This document shows, in pieces, positions 26,047-36,254 of a stretch of DNA of 64,000 nucleotides (positions within the stretch are counted from its first letter, which is position 1; every line of letters begins with the position of its first letter). This DNA is from an uncultured Myxococcales bacterium (GTDB lineage: Bacteria > Myxococcota_A > Polyangia > Fen-1088), in assembly GCA_964540815.1 (NCBI GenBank), contig CAZIOH010000007.1, positions 43,867 through 107,866 on the forward strand, in the 5' to 3' direction. The notes below the pieces were generated by a model, which searched no databases, had not been told where the DNA came from, and saw only the letters and a program-made list of their open reading frames with translations. The position numbers and the translations under genes are program-made.

Positions 26047-27111
26047 TCAGTACTCGCGGTTGACCATATAATCGAGGAGTGACCGGATGAAATCGAGGTC
26101 GTGACCCGGCGGGGCATCCGAGTACGCGTTCTCGAACTCTTGACGCGCGCCGTTGGCAAAAGCGTGGGCAGCCTGACGCGCGTACTCGAGGCTTCCGTAG
26201 GATCGCAAGAGTTCGTAGATCCAGGCCACCTCACGCTGGAGTCGCTGTGCTCTCGGCTTTGACAAGAACGTCGTCAGTCGCCGCCGTTCCTGTGCGCTGC
26301 TGGTCCTGAAAAGGTGTGCGAGGATAAGCGTCCGCTTGCCTTCGAACAAATCCCCGCCAATTTCCTTTCCGTAGGTACTTCGGTCGCCGGAGAGGTTCAG
26401 GATGTCGTCTTGAATCTGGAACGCAGTACCGAGAAAATAGCCAAATCGATTGAAGCCATCGAGATCGGTCCGGTCGGGCTCAGCGATGAGGGCGCCAATT
26501 CGCGCAGGATGAATAAAGCTGTACCAACCGGTCTTCTTCAGCACCATGAGCAAGTAGTCTTCTTCGGTGGTATGGCAATCGTTGTCGCGAATCCAACCAA
26601 GCTCCATCGCTTGGCCTTCGATTGTTTCGATCGACATGTGATCGAACTCGTCGAAAACCCTGGTCGCGAGTGAGGGGCCCAAGAGCGAGATATTCTGTCT
26701 CAGCAGCCGAACGCTCATCGCGTTCATCGCGTCGCCCACGTTGAGCGCCACGGGTACGCCGTATTGACGGTGCATCGTGGGACCATTCCGCCGGTATTCG
26801 CTTTCGTCCTCGATGTCGTCATGCACCAAGAAAGAGTTATGCAGAAGCTCGATGGCCGCGGCGGATGGCAGGGCACGCTCCTCGCCGCCTCCGAATGCCC
26901 GGCACGTCGCGAGACACAACGCTGGTCGAATGCCTTTGCCTTCGCGTGAGAGCTGGTCGGTGATCAGATCGTAGAGATGTCTCTTCGGCTCGCGGTCCGG
27001 GATGACGCTCAAGATCAGTGGCGTTACCTTTTGCCGATAGGACGCTAGTTGTCGCTCCAAGGTTCCACGATCGACGGAGAGGTCCGGCATAGCCGCGGCA
27101 TACGACGTCAT
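26047..27111 (-). CDS. Polyprenyl diphosphate synthase (trans-isoprenyl diphosphate synthase, GGPPS/FPPS-like)
   Basis: First and second aspartate-rich motifs FLVHDDIED and FQIQDDILN. ATG overlaps the upstream gene's stop (TGATG at 27109-27113). Confidence 0.85.
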   Translation of the reverse strand: MTSYAAAMPDLSVDRGTLERQLASYRQKVTPLILSVIPDREPKRHLYDLITDQLSREGKGIRPALCLATCRAFGGGEERALPSAAAIELLHNSFLVHDDIEDESEYRRNGPTMHRQYGVPVALNVGDAMNAMSVRLLRQNISLLGPSLATRVFDEFDHMSIETIEGQAMELGWIRDNDCHTTEEDYLLMVLKKTGWYSFIHPARIGALIAEPDRTDLDGFNRFGYFLGTAFQIQDDILNLSGDRSTYGKEIGGDLFEGKRTLILAHLFRTSSAQERRRLTTFLSKPRAQRLQREVAWIYELLRSYGSLEYARQAAHAFANGARQEFENAYSDAPPGHDLDFIRSLLDYMVNREY

Positions 27112-29036
27112 CAGCGCCCACTGACGATTCTGAGCCGACGCAAACCCTCGTCGCTCGACGCGCGGGCTTCGAGGGCGGCCTCTTCGATGTTGTCCTCACG
27201 AGCGCCCGGCATCGCCGCGGCATTCGCCCCCCGGGGAGCGCCGATGGCGCCTGGCCAGGCGCGTCCAACCACCTGCTGCAGGGCCCGCGTGGCGGGCAAC
27301 CCGAGCGCGGACATCGGTAGCGCCACCTCGCTGCCGTCCCAGGGGAGGCCCTTCCGATAGCGAGTTCGGTCATGAGCCCTGAATGGCGCGAAGACCGCAG
27401 GCTCGTGAAGGTTCCAGATCTCGCACCTCTCTTCCCGGGATCCACAAGCGTTCAGAATCCCGTTGACCGCCCGCCGGGCAGCTTCGTTGGCCGCCTCCAT
27501 CGTAGCGAGATCCGTGAAAGTACGGACGTAGTCCGACGCCATGAAAAGATTCGGAATCCGGGTCACCGCCTCGGGTCGAAGGCGCCACGTGTCGACGTAG
27601 TTGACCAGAAGGGGCTCGAGATTGGTGTCGACACGAGAAGTGAGGCGATTTGCATCCGCGTCGGCGTCTATCAGCCCCGGATCGAGGAACCACGAGTGGA
27701 GCTGATCGTCTCGCAGGAGCTCGTCGCTAAAATTCATGGACTTCTTGAGTTGCGCCCAGGTCTCGAGGGCAATCTCGTTCCGGGAGCATATCTGGGCCTC
27801 CTTTCCATTAGAGCCCGCGACGTCCCAATCGGAGATATCGACCGATATCAGCCCCCTGACCAGCCCGTCGCCGCGCTTCGAGATGTCGAAATTCTTCCAA
27901 AACTGCGGTTGCGAGATGGACGTCAGCGCCCAAGGCGAGTCCACGTGGATGACGTGACCTCTAGCTACGCGGACATCCACCGTGAGATAGTACTGGATCC
28001 CGATCATCCACTCGACGTATTCGGTGAGGGCGTGAAGGTTAGCCAGGGACGGATCCGCGGCGAGGAGCTCAGGAGAGATCAGCTCGGCCATTCGCTCGAC
28101 CGGCAGTGCGGCGACAAAGTAGTCCCCCGTGACCTCCCGGAGGGTGTTGCGGACCGCCACGGTCACGCTCTGTACACGACCGCGTTCGCAGCGAATGGTG
28201 CGCACGTCGGAGTCGAAGTGATAGACGAGACCTTGAGCACGAAGATGGCTCAGCCACGGATCGATCCAGACCTCGTTGGTGGGACCATTCAGCACCCTGT
28301 CAGCCGCGACGCCGGGGAGGAGTATGTCGAAGACGATCTGCACGAAGATCGAACCAATCGTCTTGGCGCTGGCTCGACGAGCCTTGGCGGCTACCAGCGA
28401 ACGGGTGATGCCGTTGCCAAAATACATTCGGTAGGCAGGCGATCGGGAGTCGGCCTCGATGAAGTCCCACCAGTTGGTTCGCTCGTATTCGACGAGTCGG
28501 CGCTCCTCGCAAGTAGTGAGGAACTGCCAGATCTTTGCCGCGAAGAACACGGCGTCATCGAGGGGTACGCCGACCTTCCCGGAGAGCTCCGCCACGATGG
28601 CGAAGACTGCGACCTTCAAATCGGCGGGACGTTCCGGGAACACCGCTGGCAGATCAAACGATGATCTATCAGACGGAGCGATCCTGAGCTCTCCCGTGTC
28701 GACAAGGTTGTCTGCGACCGTGCCGGCTGTGCCAAACGGGATCTCCTTCATCGTCTCGATGATGTGCCGATAGAATCCGGGGAAGAACCGGAACCCGTGT
28801 TCGCCCGGCAGCGATGGACCCTGCGGTGCGACGAGACTCGCCCTCGTCTCCGGCACGCTAAAAGTGGAGCGCACGAGCGATGGCCGAGCGGCAGCGAGAC
28901 TGCGTGCCTTGCCTCCCGGAATGGACTTTCGCTCGTACACCTCCACGTCAAAGCCCCGACGGACGAGCTCGTGAGCGGCGCTCAGACCACCGATTCCACC
29001 GCCCAGTATCACGACCTTCTTGCGCGCACCCGCCAT
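27111..29036 (-). CDS. FAD-dependent oxidoreductase, amine-oxidase/phytoene-desaturase-like, with an acidic linker and a C-terminal RLRIVSGR tail
   Basis: N-terminal Rossmann KKVVILGGGIGGLSAAHEL...YERKSIPGGK. Start placed at MAGARKK (29036); the 29102 alternative overlaps the upstream gene. C-terminus ...EEAALEARASSDEGLRRLRIVSGR. Confidence 0.7.
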   Translation of the reverse strand: MAGARKKVVILGGGIGGLSAAHELVRRGFDVEVYERKSIPGGKARSLAAARPSLVRSTFSVPETRASLVAPQGPSLPGEHGFRFFPGFYRHIIETMKEIPFGTAGTVADNLVDTGELRIAPSDRSSFDLPAVFPERPADLKVAVFAIVAELSGKVGVPLDDAVFFAAKIWQFLTTCEERRLVEYERTNWWDFIEADSRSPAYRMYFGNGITRSLVAAKARRASAKTIGSIFVQIVFDILLPGVAADRVLNGPTNEVWIDPWLSHLRAQGLVYHFDSDVRTIRCERGRVQSVTVAVRNTLREVTGDYFVAALPVERMAELISPELLAADPSLANLHALTEYVEWMIGIQYYLTVDVRVARGHVIHVDSPWALTSISQPQFWKNFDISKRGDGLVRGLISVDISDWDVAGSNGKEAQICSRNEIALETWAQLKKSMNFSDELLRDDQLHSWFLDPGLIDADADANRLTSRVDTNLEPLLVNYVDTWRLRPEAVTRIPNLFMASDYVRTFTDLATMEAANEAARRAVNGILNACGSREERCEIWNLHEPAVFAPFRAHDRTRYRKGLPWDGSEVALPMSALGLPATRALQQVVGRAWPGAIGAPRGANAAAMPGAREDNIEEAALEARASSDEGLRRLRIVSGR

Positions 29037-36000: not shown

Positions 36001-36254
36001 GTTACGCGGCCCTCGTATAGGATCACGGCGTCCCGGCATACCGCCTGGTAGCTTTCAAGAAGTTCAACAAGATCTTCCGGATCGAGTCTCTTGGATAGAC
36101 CGATCGAGTTGACGAGATCGCAAAAAAGGAAGGTGAGCGAACGCCGTTCACTCTCGAGGAGCCGCGTCCTTAGCGCCATTCCACAGGTGGCGCAGAACCG
36201 TGCTCCAGGCTGGATCGCGGCGCTACATCCTCTGCAAGACCCACTCGAATCCAT
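33018..36254 (-). CDS. Multidomain signalling ATPase: double zinc ribbon, class III adenylate/guanylate cyclase, AAA/NB-ARC ATPase and TPR
   Basis: CRGCSAAIQPGARFCATCG. Cyclase catalytic motifs FLFCDLVNS, GDGVVAFFG, RVGLHTGEAVVG. Walker A GEAGIGKS. Long TPR-like C-terminus. Stop overlaps the start of 32069..33034 by 17 nt. Confidence 0.8.
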   Translation of the reverse strand: MDSSGSCRGCSAAIQPGARFCATCGMALRTRLLESERRSLTFLFCDLVNSIGLSKRLDPEDLVELLESYQAVCRDAVILYEGRVTQFLGDGVVAFFGYPIAHEDDEVRATRAALRVVEDIKVVNQGIGKRLGVELHIRVGLHTGEAVVGQLGPSGSSQLLAVGENVNLAARIQSVAAPDTVVVSLATVKQIEGHFQVEALDPQSLKGFDEMVELFRIVAATGARTKLEAAARGQLTPRVGREREMALLASSWAEVQAGMFRVLLVRGEAGIGKSRLIHDFRQSALASGAEVMECFCSRLTDRAALAPIIEMLSAQVSKRAGDQTTPQAKLAALDDILREQGCSDEEVLPLMSSLFSIPGADEEPIRDLSPGRRRTRTLETIRSWLGSYARRSPVAFLVEDIHWADPSTLDLLDLIINEGSDGRTLICATARPEFRDRWLKPHVRTLDLPRLSGDAAEAIVTHVAGAHALQGLLVRQIVERSEGVPLFVEEVTKAVVESGAMPIANRNELEHSSDGEFVPATVQASIVARFDRLGEGRLVAQFGATIGREFVYPLVRAVTGMSDAELGRHLDRLCHSELVVSDGEPPNAVYTFKHALIQVAIRNTVLRKDRAVLHEKVFAKLRDELPELVEALPEMAAYHAEKAGLPGVAVPLLQEAGMRAFGRTAMAEAAKHLGHAIELVDALSEPARTTTEMELQATIGPAYMATLGWAVSQVERSSERLRDLATACGDVARLYQATWSLWTVYFLRGQLDPALEVAHQVLAMAVKSGDPLLRVTGHHAVGFTHERRGEYAEAIRHADEGLALFDLERERRIVTQFVFSSTCAILWFRGQSQLATGQVKDGIESLSRAAELVDELRHAPSRCFLLSQQCWSLADEDIGKVQRLAQSMRSLAIVEGFALWVHYADIFLAWAAARQHGDAAAAVDKIRAAMAQMHKDRSHVQDNELATILAETLLLAGRPEEAFGALEETLAAARRGQQRHLEAELFRFQGEAAKDMGDLSRAMTFYRQAIDSARSVGARLLELRASLGLARIGGARERAQLKTVFEGFTEGFDHIDMKKASAFLMARATGGELDVLRA

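What the first reader, a model, noticed from the sequence alone, without database searches (positions are those of the whole stretch)
26047..36254. Encapsulin shell gene in a tightly coupled operon lacking every canonical cargo type
The gene at 30363..31292 has the family-1 encapsulin N-terminal helix/GP-x-VP region and C-terminal strand, compared with the M. xanthus EncA N-terminus recalled from memory. No DyP peroxidase, ferritin-like, hemerythrin or rubrerythrin gene is nearby. The same-strand genes are instead a zinc-ribbon/adenylate cyclase/AAA/TPR protein, a fusion of a beta-rich domain with a truncated haemoglobin, and a 244-aa protein with an RLRQQAHE(L/F)V duplicated motif. After the shell gene come a 130-aa helical protein, a tandem beta-rich-domain protein, an amine-oxidase-like flavoenzyme and a polyprenyl diphosphate synthase. 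Gene spacing indicates co-translation. The cyclase stop overlaps the globin-fusion start by 17 nt. Gaps further along are 3, 38, 22, 7 and 14 nt, followed by a TGATG start/stop overlap at 27111. A family-1 shell combined with isoprenoid/flavin chemistry and a globin would be a cargo set not matching any described encapsulin operon class I know. Terpene-type cargo is otherwise associated with family-2 shells.
Basis: partly seen in the sequence, partly recalled or inferred. Interest (0 to 1): 0.9.

Follow-up and report, generated by a model that had tools for sequence, protein, structure and literature searches.

The report
Encapsulin shell with flavoenzyme–isoprenoid cargo
A protein nanocompartment (encapsulin) gene sits in a conserved operon whose likely cargo is a flavin enzyme paired with an isoprenoid-building enzyme, a cargo type I found in no paper on this kind of shell.

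Summary
Window 30363-31292 (-) encodes a divergent family-1-type encapsulin shell. It scores 72 bits against Pfam Linocin_M18, and all 50 listed Foldseek PDB matches of its AlphaFold model are family-1 encapsulins. No DyP, ferritin-like, hemerythrin or rubrerythrin gene lies nearby, and no phage genes.

The block of shell, two-domain DUF3237 protein, FAD amine-oxidase-like enzyme and polyprenyl diphosphate synthase recurs in all 11 distinct related loci. Ten also carry the disordered-plus-Ig-like protein. Ten are Polyangiaceae-type or unnamed metagenome contigs and one is Acidobacteriota. A second clade, with shells only about 33% identical, has shell, flavoenzyme and synthase.

Only the flavoenzyme carries a cargo-type tail: a variable linker, then a conserved C-terminal peptide (…SSDEGLRRLRIV here, …GRVxIIPK in the second clade). 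Four of four tail-bearing relatives chosen without reference to shells sit beside a shell gene. None of five tail-less relatives does.

I conclude this is a new cargo class for a family-1-like shell. The flavoenzyme is the likely cargo and the synthase probably rides with it. The globin fusion and the 130-aa ORF are accessory. A STAND-type nucleotide cyclase and a cNMP-binding kinase are conserved neighbours. Assembly, loading and chemistry remain untested.

The parts
30363..31292 (-). Shell protein (309 aa): a divergent family-1-type encapsulin with the HK97 fold
   Evidence: Pfam Linocin_M18 72 bits against a cut-off of 24.3. NCBIfam encap_f1 76 bits, below its cut-off of 100. phmmer against PDB gives encapsulins only among significant hits, best 9i8e at 2.8e-9. 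AlphaFold model pLDDT 79.7 with an N-terminal helix at residues 12-29. All 50 listed Foldseek PDB matches are family-1 encapsulins, best 5e-16. Viral capsids score weaker, best 2.4e-12. No PHROG match.
27111..29036 (-). FAD-dependent amine-oxidase / HpnE-like flavoenzyme, the proposed cargo. The likely start is Met23 at 29036; the longest ORF reaches 29102.
   Evidence: Amino_oxidase, NAD_binding_8 and DAO hits. The best NCBIfam hit is HpnE at 71 bits, against a cut-off of 283. The N-terminus upstream of ARKKVVILGGG is not conserved. The family is large: 4098 representatives at E<=1e-3.
27171..27338 (-). Variable Ala/Gly/Pro-rich linker of the flavoenzyme (residues 589-644)
   Evidence: Length and sequence vary between orthologues, roughly 35-100 aa.
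27123..27170 (-). Conserved C-terminal peptide EARASSDEGLRRLRIV, three residues before the stop; candidate cargo-loading peptide
   Evidence: It lies within 1-5 residues of the stop in every Polyangiaceae-type locus, in the expected form in nine loci and diverged in L005 and L014, and at no other gene C-terminus in the window or loci. A second clade ends in GRVxIIP[KRQH]. Tail-bearing relatives sit beside a shell in 4 of 4 cases and tail-less ones in 0 of 5. It shares SDxxL…[LI] with the family-1 consensus SDGSLGIGSLKRS (PMC8346489).
26047..27111 (-). Short-chain trans-polyprenyl diphosphate synthase (GGPP-synthase-like), overlapping the flavoenzyme stop (TGATG)
   Evidence: polyprenyl_synt 213 bits. 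The closest solved structure is Thermus GGPP synthase 1wmw at 8e-55. DDIED and DDILN motifs are present. It is fused to the flavoenzyme in L012 and in P0229, P0230, P0282, P0354 and P0369. The overlap is seen.
31331..32065 (-). 244-aa conserved partner: a disordered N-half with short conserved motifs plus a C-terminal Ig-like (PapD/ASH/MSP-type) domain. Candidate scaffold or adaptor.
31700..31834 (-). The two RLRQQAHE[LF]V helix motifs of the 244-aa protein (31793-31834 and 31700-31741)
   Evidence: One search gives coordinates. One copy is present in every orthologue and a second in some. LRQxHELV is kept in the second clade.
31856..32020 (-). N-terminal helix DLVTRASTVLTREGARM (31970-32020) and the CPVTGAAVP motif (31856-31882) of the 244-aa protein
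   Evidence: Public gene calls start at Met32 and so cut off the conserved helix (P0121 is 213 aa).
29050..29940 (-). Two-domain protein: an unassigned N-terminal beta-rich domain plus C-terminal DUF3237
   Evidence: DUF3237 81 bits at residues 145-290. PDB relatives 3g7g, 3c5o and 4pux. Present in all 11 loci. The N-terminal domain has no Pfam match.
32069..33034 (-). DUF3237 fused to a truncated haemoglobin; accessory
   Evidence: DUF3237 47.9 bits and Bac_globin 46.1 bits. Found only in the window, L001/L002, L008 and L011 (there on the other strand), and as a 741-aa form in L018. A His in a conserved RVHAPM-type motif, possibly the proximal His, is kept in all four aligned sequences.
29948..30340 (-). 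130-aa ORF with no family; not part of the conserved core
   Evidence: It resembles only the 74-aa ORF of L001 (33% over 60 aa). Other loci hold unrelated ORFs or none at this position.
33018..36254 (-). STAND-type signalling protein: zinc ribbon + class III nucleotide cyclase + AAA_16 + TPR. Proposed regulator.
   Evidence: TIGR03903-like, 500 bits, below cut-off, without the kinase part. Adjacent in either orientation in 10 of 11 shell loci; in L011 only a weak relative about 3 kb beyond the operon on the same strand. A 36%-identical relative sits directly upstream of a tail-less flavoenzyme in Aquabacterium.
24436..25791 (-). Ser/Thr protein kinase with a C-terminal cNMP-binding domain; conserved neighbour and proposed reader of the cyclase signal
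   Evidence: Pkinase 142 bits and cNMP_binding 71 bits. Relatives of 41-48% identity lie within 10 kb of the shell in L003, L005, L008, L009, L010 and L011. L012 has a cNMP-binding kinase in the other domain order.

Best explanation
This is a conserved gene cluster of uncultured soil bacteria. The named genome hits are Polyangiaceae-type Myxococcota plus one Acidobacteriota. It builds a family-1-type encapsulin nanocompartment around a cargo class that I found in no paper.

Shown:
- The shell protein has the family-1 encapsulin fold.
- Shell, flavoenzyme, prenyl diphosphate synthase and the two-domain DUF3237 protein are kept together in all 11 related loci, and the disordered-plus-Ig-like protein in 10 of them.
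- Shell, flavoenzyme and synthase also stay together in a second clade whose shells are about 33% identical; three of its four loci have the Ig-like protein.
- The flavoenzyme of shell-linked loci alone carries a variable linker ending in a conserved C-terminal peptide, with core R-[LV]-x-I-[IV].

Inferred:
- That peptide docks the flavoenzyme to the inner face of the shell, as family-1 targeting peptides do.
- The prenyl synthase is translationally coupled here and covalently fused in other lineages. It makes a C15-C20 prenyl diphosphate and is either co-packaged by binding the flavoenzyme or feeds it from outside.
- The flavoenzyme is HpnE / phytoene-desaturase-like. It carries out an FAD-dependent redox step on an isoprenoid-derived substrate, and the shell confines a hydrophobic or reactive intermediate or by-product.
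- The DUF3237 proteins act as cofactor-free tailoring enzymes. Their family includes the prenyl-alkene cyclising enzyme PhnH.
- The Ig-like protein, with its conserved short motifs, acts as a scaffold or adaptor during assembly.
- The STAND cyclase and the neighbouring cNMP-binding kinase switch the system on through a cyclic nucleotide.
For: Shell identity.

Conserved block in 11 distinct loci with differing flanks.

Second clade with shell, flavoenzyme and synthase. The Ig-like protein follows the synthase in L018, L019 and L020.

Tail anatomy and conservation.

Tail specificity: of 142 family representatives with a complete core, 107 end within 45 aa of it and only one has a motif-like end.

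Independent context test: 4 of 4 tail-bearing flavoenzymes lie next to a Linocin_M18 gene, and 0 of 5 tail-less ones do. By my own arithmetic the one-sided Fisher exact p is about 0.008.

The synthase, both DUF3237 proteins and the Ig-like protein have no such tail.

Flavoenzyme-synthase fusions. TGATG overlap.

The Acidobacteriota locus also carries, by my reading of the translation, an IspH-like isoprenoid-precursor gene.

DUF3237 enzymology: PMC11969235 and PMC9942872.

Ig-like fold of the 244-aa protein.

Regulator pair.

Family-1 targeting peptides are short C-terminal peptides that bind a pocket formed partly by the N-terminal helix (PMC8346489).
Against: - No assembly, loading or activity has been tested.
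- The peptide differs from the family-1 consensus SDGSLGIGSLKRS. It also differs between the two clades.
- The Acidobacteriota locus (L012) has a shell next to a flavoenzyme-synthase fusion with no recognisable tail and no Ig-like protein.
- The flavoenzyme scores far below the HpnE cut-off (71 against 283) and has no close solved relative, so its substrate is unknown.
- Tail-less relatives are not next to prenyl synthases, so an isoprenoid substrate is not a property of the whole family.
- The shell falls below NCBI's family-1 equivalog cut-off.
- A single transcript is inferred from spacing only (one search was uninformative).
Confidence: 0.6

Rival explanations
1. Adaptor model. The 244-aa disordered-plus-Ig-like protein is the component that binds the shell, as a scaffold or primary cargo. 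The flavoenzyme's C-terminal peptide binds that protein's Ig-like domain, for example by strand addition as in PapD- or MSP-type domains, rather than binding the shell directly.
For: The gene sits directly upstream of the shell, the usual cargo position. It is conserved in both clades and keeps its QASxILxxE and LRQxHELV helices. Its fold class is a peptide- and strand-binding one. The only shell locus without it (L012) is also the only one whose flavoenzyme lacks the tail.
Against: The co-absence rests on one locus. In the second clade the gene lies after the synthase, not next to the shell. No family-1 system I know of uses an adaptor. The N-half of the model has low confidence.
Confidence: 0.2
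2. Neighbours only. The shell is empty or takes a cargo encoded elsewhere. The flavoenzyme tail has another role, such as binding a partner or a membrane, or autoinhibition, and the cluster is simply a co-regulated isoprenoid pathway.
For: The tail sequence does not match the canonical targeting peptide. L012 lacks it. Many tail-less relatives end in basic or aromatic amphipathic segments that suggest the C-terminus is a general localisation element.
Against: The tail appears only where a shell gene is adjacent, in two clades that diverged to about 33% shell identity. No other gene C-terminus in the window or loci carries the motif. Shell and flavoenzyme are kept together while the flanks change.
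Confidence: 0.12
3. The polyprenyl synthase is the directly targeted cargo, as in family-2B polyprenyl-transferase systems.
For: Its best NCBIfam hit is the family-2 cargo polyprenyl transferase model (198 bits). Terpenoid enzymes are known encapsulin cargo (PMC8346489; PMC11550324).
Against: The score is far below the cut-off of 450 and almost equal to the scores for ordinary GGPP synthases. The protein has no long disordered terminal domain and no conserved terminal motif. The shell is not family 2.
Confidence: 0.05
4. Remnant phage capsid gene, or a Pycsar-like defence module, rather than a metabolic compartment.
For: The fold is HK97. The cyclase domain hits PycC models and the kinase hits PD-T4-6 models in PADLOC.
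Against: There is no terminase, portal, protease or any PHROG match. Family-1 encapsulins match better than any viral capsid. The PADLOC hits are to generic cyclase and kinase domains, and the effector architecture is not that of Pycsar. The gene set conserved with the shell is metabolic.
Confidence: 0.03

Closest known systems
Family 1 (classical) encapsulins, e.g. Myxococcus xanthus EncA with EncB/C/D, or DyP- and ferritin-like-protein systems
   Same: The shell matches Pfam Linocin_M18 and has the HK97 fold with an N-terminal helix. EncA, Dendrosporobacter and Quasibacillus shells are the best structural matches. A neighbouring enzyme has a disordered linker plus a short conserved C-terminal peptide that begins SDxxL like the family-1 consensus.
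   Different: About 20% identity to solved shells, and below NCBI's equivalog cut-off. The E-loop and A-domain carry variable insertions. The cargo is a roughly 640-aa FAD oxidoreductase, not DyP, ferritin-like, hemerythrin or rubrerythrin. The peptide core is R-[LV]-x-I-[IV] rather than LGIGSL. There is an extra conserved non-enzymatic Ig-like partner, and dedicated cyclase and kinase neighbours.
Family 2B encapsulins with terpenoid cargo (2-methylisoborneol synthase, geosmin synthase, polyprenyl transferases)
   Same: An HK97-type shell is linked to isoprenoid enzymes and to cyclic-nucleotide sensing.
   Different: In family 2B the cNMP-binding domain is inside the shell protein and the cargo carries long disordered N-terminal domains. 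Here the shell is family-1-type without such a domain. The cNMP parts are separate proteins (a cyclase and a kinase). The tail sits on a flavoenzyme, not on the prenyl enzyme. This reads as convergence, not membership.
HpnE (hydroxysqualene dehydroxylase) and the CrtI/phytoene desaturase branch of the amine-oxidase superfamily
   Same: An FAD Rossmann N-terminus and the amine-oxidase fold. HpnE is the best-scoring named family, and public annotations of tail-less relatives use that name. Its substrates are isoprenoids.
   Different: 71 bits against a cut-off of 283. The protein is about 150-200 aa longer. No HpnC/HpnD or CrtB-type head-to-head condensing enzyme was seen in the cluster.
DUF3237 enzymes PhnH (fungal prenyl-alkene hydroalkoxylase) and PhcF/PhcG (lignan decarboxylases)
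   Same: The same Pfam domain, a small cofactor-free beta-barrel acting on hydrophobic substrates.
   Different: Here the domain is fused to an unassigned N-terminal domain or to a truncated haemoglobin. No catalytic residues were compared.

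Membership tests
Family 1 encapsulin | Shell protein matches Pfam PF04454 (Linocin_M18) above the gathering score | tested here: met
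   72 bits against 24.3. All 120 listed homologues carry PF04454.
Family 1 encapsulin | Reaches NCBIfam NF041155 (encap_f1, equivalog) cut-off | tested here: not met
   76.3 bits against a cut-off of 100. This marks a divergent subfamily.
Family 1 encapsulin | HK97 fold with an N-terminal helix instead of an extended N-arm, closest to solved family-1 shells | tested here: met
   AlphaFold model with helix 12-29 at pLDDT above 90. All 50 listed Foldseek PDB hits are family-1 encapsulins. Viral capsids score weaker.
Family 1 encapsulin | Adjacent cargo gene with a short terminal targeting peptide after a flexible linker | tested here: inconclusive
   The form is met: linker plus conserved C-terminal peptide, and tail and shell co-occur in 4 of 4 against 0 of 5 contexts. 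The sequence differs from SDGSLGIGSLKRS. Binding was not tested.
Family 1 encapsulin | Self-assembly into a closed icosahedral shell that packages the cargo | not testable with these tools
   Needs expression with electron microscopy, or a multimer prediction.
Known family-1 operon classes (DyP, Flp, IMEF, hemerythrin, rubrerythrin, bacterioferritin, cytochrome fusion) | One of these cargo genes next to the shell | tested here: not met
   None among the eight operon genes or the flanks. The classes are listed in PMC8346489.
Family 2B encapsulin | cNMP-binding domain in the shell, and cargo with a long disordered N-terminal domain | tested here: not met
   The shell has only PF04454. The synthase scores 198 against a cut-off of 450 on NF041169 and has no long terminal extension.
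Family 3 (natural-product) encapsulin | Shell found by similarity to the Myxococcus Family 3 protein A0A346D7L6 and embedded in a natural-product cluster (NRPS/PKS, sulfotransferase, SDR or AmCP genes) | tested here: not met
   The shell matches PF04454 and family-1 structures. No NRPS, PKS or sulfotransferase genes were seen in the parts of the window scanned. The shell was not compared directly with A0A346D7L6.
HpnE hydroxysqualene dehydroxylase | Reaches the TIGR03467 cut-off, with HpnC/HpnD partners | tested here: not met
   71.2 against 283. No SQS_PSY-type gene among the operon genes.
trans-Polyprenyl diphosphate synthase | PF00348 match with both Asp-rich motifs | tested here: met
   213.5 bits. 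DDIED and DDILN are present. The nearest structure is Thermus GGPP synthase. No chain-length-specific NCBIfam model reaches its cut-off.
Pycsar anti-phage system | Stand-alone PycC cyclase plus a cNMP-binding effector carrying a TIR or membrane-disrupting domain | tested here: not met
   There is only a domain-level PycC hit of 70 bits inside a 1078-aa STAND protein. The cNMP-binding protein is a Hanks-type kinase.

The most novel reading that the evidence does not exclude
A regulated terpenoid nano-reactor that evolved independently of family 2B. A family-1-type shell is assembled with a dedicated Ig-like scaffold protein. It encloses a flavoenzyme-prenyl synthase pair so that a hydrophobic or reactive isoprenoid intermediate is made and transformed inside a protein shell. 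The whole system is switched by a STAND nucleotide cyclase read by a cNMP-binding kinase.

If true, this would be a second, convergent joining of HK97 shells, terpenoid chemistry and cyclic-nucleotide signalling. It would also be the first family-1 system with an accessory scaffold or adaptor.
Probability: 0.3. Interest if true: 0.85.

Novelty: new variant of a known kind. Interest (0 to 1): 0.7.

Why it matters
Encapsulins are sorted by what they carry. Family-1 shells are known for peroxidases and iron- or oxygen-handling ferritin-like proteins, while terpenoid enzymes had been tied to family 2.

A family-1-type shell that packages an FAD oxidoreductase coupled to prenyl diphosphate synthesis would:
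- widen the chemistry ascribed to classical encapsulins;
- supply a new targeting peptide, with two natural variants, for engineering;
- introduce a conserved non-enzymatic partner that may act as a scaffold;
- point to convergent use of protein shells for isoprenoid chemistry under cyclic-nucleotide control.

It also gives a first functional lead on a very large, uncharacterised flavoenzyme family (over 4000 cluster representatives). That family is repeatedly linked to STAND and SpoIIE-type signalling proteins.

All known carriers are uncultured, so the system is open only to heterologous work.

Tried and rejected
- **Promoter/terminator scan of 24000-37500:** counts were within the shuffled expectation, so it says nothing about transcript structure.
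- **Pfam at E up to 10:** nothing usable for the 244-aa protein, the 130-aa ORF or the N-terminal domain of the 296-aa protein. PHROGs gave nothing for the four central genes.
- **130-aa ORF as a conserved partner, or as the C-terminal extension seen on one shell homologue (P0026):** BLAST supports only a weak match to the L001 74-aa ORF, so this was rejected.
- **Tail-less flavoenzymes as membrane-anchored by a hydrophobic C-terminus:** only 20 of 107 short tails have a hydrophobic 15-aa window, so this is weak and was not used. My first regex anchor for the end of the core found only 39 of 150 sequences and was replaced by BLAST-based ends.
- **A shared motif in the linkers of flavoenzyme-synthase fusions:** none found.
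- **PADLOC:** only generic domain hits.
- **Literature:** no paper holds both 'encapsulin' and DUF3237. Searches pairing 'encapsulin' with amine oxidase or with FAD plus metagenome terms found no description of such a system. One broad six-term search returned only irrelevant papers.
- **Cluster look-up:** gave no organism names.
- **Possible kinship between the RLRQQAHEL helices of the 244-aa protein and the GLRRLRIV tail:** seen by eye only, with inconsistent spacing, so it is not claimed.

Full report
**Observation.**
The minus strand of 26047-36254 carries eight closely spaced ORFs. Profile searches give the following.
- 33018-36254: weak double zinc ribbon, class III nucleotide cyclase, AAA_16 and TPR. 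This resembles the C-terminal part of TIGR03903 without its kinase.
- 32069-33034: DUF3237 fused to a bacterial truncated globin.
- 31331-32065: no family.
- 30363-31292: Linocin_M18, 72 bits against a cut-off of 24.3.
- 29948-30340: no family.
- 29050-29940: DUF3237 in the C-terminal half only.
- 27111-29102: amine-oxidase-type FAD enzyme. The best named family is HpnE, at 71 bits against a cut-off of 283.
- 26047-27111: polyprenyl diphosphate synthase, 213 bits.

The flavoenzyme then starts at Met23 (29036), which the orthologue alignment favours. The TGATG stop/start overlap at 27111 is real. The duplicated RLRQQAHE[LF]V motif is at residues 78-91 and 109-122 of the 244-aa protein.

**The shell.**
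phmmer against solved structures finds only encapsulins among the significant hits, led by 9i8e at 2.8e-9 and M. xanthus EncA at 3e-5. An AlphaFold model built on 30 homologues has pLDDT 79.7 and pTM 0.74. It shows an N-terminal helix (residues 12-29), an E-loop, a spine helix (102-125) and C-terminal P-domain strands.

All 50 listed Foldseek PDB matches are family-1 encapsulins: EncA, Dendrosporobacter, Quasibacillus, Bacillus methanolicus, Thermotoga and the mycobacterial shells. Their E-values run from 5e-16 to 6e-12, at 15-22% identity. Viral HK97 capsids match more weakly, with a best E-value of 2.4e-12 and lower TM-scores. No PHROG family matches.

The protein falls below NCBI's family-1 equivalog cut-off (76 against 100). 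Its relatives carry variable insertions in the E-loop and A-domain. It is therefore a divergent subfamily of family-1-type shells.

The window holds no terminase, portal or protease. Its flanks encode kinases, DUF1552/DUF1592 pairs, a PAAR toxin, sensor kinases and glycoside hydrolases.

**Conservation.**
The shell has more than 444 metagenomic homologues. Its genome hits are all metagenome-assembled genomes: Polyangiaceae or unnamed 'delta proteobacterium' bins, plus one Acidobacteriota.

In all 11 distinct loci examined, the shell gene is joined to the two-domain DUF3237 protein, the flavoenzyme and the synthase. In all but the Acidobacteriota locus it is also joined to the 244-aa protein. 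Shell identity across these loci is 44-76% and the flanking genes differ.
- The cyclase/AAA/TPR gene is adjacent in either orientation in 10 of the 11; L011 has only a weak relative (31% identity) about 3 kb beyond the operon.
- The DUF3237-globin fusion is present in only some loci.
- The 130-aa ORF is replaced by unrelated ORFs or by nothing.
- A Ser/Thr kinase with a cNMP-binding domain (window 24436-25791) has relatives within 10 kb of the shell in six other loci. The Acidobacteriota locus has one in the other domain order.

**Which protein is cargo?**
Family-1 cargo is recognised by a short terminal peptide after a flexible linker. That peptide binds a pocket formed partly by the shell's N-terminal helix, and the published consensus is SDGSLGIGSLKRS (PMC8346489).

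Among the operon proteins, only the flavoenzyme has this anatomy.
- Its catalytic core ends at …YRKGLPW (residue 588).
- A linker follows that varies in length and sequence between orthologues.
- It ends in a near-invariant peptide, AAxEARxSSDxGLRRLRI[VL], one to five residues before the stop.

The motif occurs at no other gene C-terminus in the window or the loci. The synthase, both DUF3237 proteins and the 244-aa protein have no comparable tail. By eye, the peptide shares SDxxL…[LI] with the family-1 consensus but is otherwise different.

**Specificity of the tail.**
The flavoenzyme belongs to a very large family: 4098 representatives at E<=1e-3 and 1275 at E<=1e-30. Of 142 top representatives with a complete core:
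- 107 stop within 45 residues of the core;
- 26 carry large fusions;
- only one has a motif-like end.

A search seeded with a tail-less member exposed a subgroup of 637-666 aa that ends in …G[RK]VxI[IV]P[KRQH].

I used this subgroup as an independent test. I picked tail-bearing and tail-less members without any reference to shells and looked at their contigs.
- All four tail-bearing members (L018, L019, L020, L023) lie directly downstream of a Linocin_M18 gene, which is partial at the contig edge in L020. Each is directly upstream of a polyprenyl synthase.
- None of the five tail-less members has a shell or a synthase within 8 kb. These are L015 Paenibacillus, L016 Aquabacterium, L017 Bacteroidota, L021 and L022.

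The shells of this second group are only 32-34% identical to the window's shell in L018 and L019, and 41% over the partial shell of L020. The association of shell, tailed flavoenzyme and synthase is therefore old. The two tails share a core R-[LV]-x-I-[IV] at the extreme C-terminus. L014 and P0228 are intermediate forms.

The one exception is the Acidobacteriota locus L012. There the flavoenzyme and synthase form one 982-aa protein without a recognisable tail.

**The other parts.**
*Synthase.* It is closest to Thermus GGPP synthase (1wmw, 8e-55) and keeps both Asp-rich motifs. A short-chain product is therefore likely. It is fused to the flavoenzyme in L012 and in five family representatives. 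Together with the overlapping stop and start codons, this argues that the two enzymes work together and possibly bind each other. L012 also carries what reads as an IspH gene beside the cluster (identified by eye).

*DUF3237.* This domain has two characterised kinds of member, both cofactor-free enzymes acting on hydrophobic substrates. PhnH adds a hydroxyl across a prenyl alkene (PMC11969235). PhcF and PhcG are decarboxylases (PMC9942872). Other flavoenzyme relatives are fused to acetoacetate-decarboxylase-like barrels.

*The 244-aa protein.*
- It has about 100 homologues, none named.
- Its N-half is predicted with low confidence. That half carries conserved short motifs: DLLxQASAVLAREA, and one or two copies of RxCPVTGAAVP…D(R)LRQQAHELIExLL.
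- It has a confident C-terminal beta-sandwich of the PapD/ASH/MSP kind.
- A distant relative that keeps the QASxILxxE and LRQxHELV helices follows the synthase in the second clade.
- It has no catalytic signature, so I read it as a scaffold or adaptor.

**Regulators.**
The cyclase-STAND protein is not specific to the shell. A 36%-identical relative lies directly upstream of a tail-less flavoenzyme in Aquabacterium, next to a Crp-type cNMP-binding regulator. Other tail-less relatives sit beside a kinase-AAA_16-GAF-histidine-kinase protein or beside DUF6989 plus SpoIIE phosphatases.

So the flavoenzyme family is habitually coupled to signalling proteins. In the shell-linked clades the partner is a cyclase, together with a cNMP-binding kinase. 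PADLOC gives only generic domain hits, and I do not consider a defence role likely.

**Mechanism proposed.**
*Shown:* the fold of the shell, the conserved gene set, and a tail restricted to shell-linked flavoenzymes.

*Inferred:*
- the tail loads the flavoenzyme into the shell;
- the synthase supplies, and may accompany, the flavoenzyme;
- the flavoenzyme carries out an FAD-dependent redox step on an isoprenoid-derived molecule, whose hydrophobic or reactive intermediate or by-product the shell confines;
- the DUF3237 proteins tailor the product;
- the Ig-like protein helps assembly or loading;
- cyclic-nucleotide signalling controls the system.

I put about 0.9 on the shell being a true family-1-type encapsulin. 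I put about 0.65 on the flavoenzyme being cargo and about 0.5 on an isoprenoid substrate.

**Comparison with what is known.**
The 2021 census of encapsulins lists DyP, ferritin-like classes, hemerythrin, bacterioferritin and cytochrome fusions for family 1, plus 90 unassigned systems. [quoted passage not shown] Later work shows 2-methylisoborneol and geosmin synthases inside family-2B shells (PMC11550324 and bioRxiv 10.64898/2026.07.21.739788).

I found no paper linking encapsulins with DUF3237 or describing an amine-oxidase-type cargo. The library does not cover subscription journals, so an earlier description cannot be excluded.

I file this as a new variant of a known kind: a family-1-type shell with a new cargo class, a new targeting peptide and an extra conserved partner. 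Its resemblance to family 2B (terpenoid enzymes plus cNMP) is functional convergence, not membership.

Noticed in passing
window 51657-54503 (+): A 948-aa ORF that joins an N-terminal Ser/Thr protein kinase domain to a glycoside hydrolase family 6 (cellulase-type) domain. A stand-alone GH6 gene lies at 57829-59322 (-). The fusion is unusual.
   Followed up: no
window 43166-44167 (+): An ORF with a PAAR motif plus a Peptidase_M91 effector domain, a likely type VI secretion toxin.
   Followed up: no
window ~22000-46000: G+C is 0.60-0.65 across this stretch, which contains the operon, against 0.67-0.72 on both sides. This may mark a region of different origin.
   Followed up: no
window 17233-20672 (-) and 46856-50016 (-): Two copies of a DUF1552 (HXXSHH) plus DUF1592/DUF1588/DUF1595/DUF1585 gene pair.
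   Followed up: no
window 31331-32065 (-); P0121: Public gene calls for the identical protein start at Met32 (213 aa). That removes the N-terminal helix DLVTRASTVLTREGA, which is conserved in the orthologues. The GTG start at 32065 fits the conservation better.
   Followed up: partly
L012 10954-13902 (Acidobacteriota MAG); P0229, P0230, P0282, P0354, P0369: The flavoenzyme and the polyprenyl synthase are fused into one protein. L012 also has an IspH-like ORF (7441-8484) and a kinase with an N-terminal cNMP-binding domain beside the shell.
   Followed up: partly
L016 4029-11851 (Aquabacterium humicola); L021; L017 and L022: Tail-less relatives of the flavoenzyme sit next to signalling proteins. 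L016 has a Crp-like cNMP regulator plus a zinc-ribbon/cyclase/AAA_16 protein, then a second amine-oxidase-like gene. L021 has a 1792-aa kinase-AAA_16-GAF-histidine kinase. L017 and L022 have DUF6989 plus a SpoIIE phosphatase. The family as a whole may be an output or a target of signalling.
   Followed up: partly
P0255, P0241, P0483, P0286, P0249: Other fusion partners of the flavoenzyme family: acetoacetate-decarboxylase-like barrels, a second FAD_binding_3 monooxygenase-type domain, and DUF2515. Several members also give faint MCRA (fatty-acid hydratase) similarity.
   Followed up: no
P0078, P0107, P0058, P0026 (shell homologues): Shell relatives carry insertions of very different length in the E-loop and A-domain (over 100 aa in P0078), and some have C-terminal extensions. 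Pore or surface properties may differ between lineages.
   Followed up: no
L014 10037-10925: The shell gene of this locus is split into two overlapping ORFs, by frameshift or assembly error. Its flavoenzyme tail is the divergent …RRGRIVPL form.
   Followed up: no
L023 6342-8297; L018 16136-18361: The second-clade loci hold further unassigned genes: a 651-aa protein after the synthase in L023 and a 741-aa DUF3237-globin protein in L018, with a haem peroxidase gene nearby.
   Followed up: no
window 33018-36254 (-), cyclase domain: The cyclase domain reads TQFLGDG where adenylyl cyclases usually have a Lys before the GD. From memory, this resembles the Gln/Asn type of M. tuberculosis Rv0386, so the nucleotide produced is uncertain. 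This was not tested.
   Followed up: no
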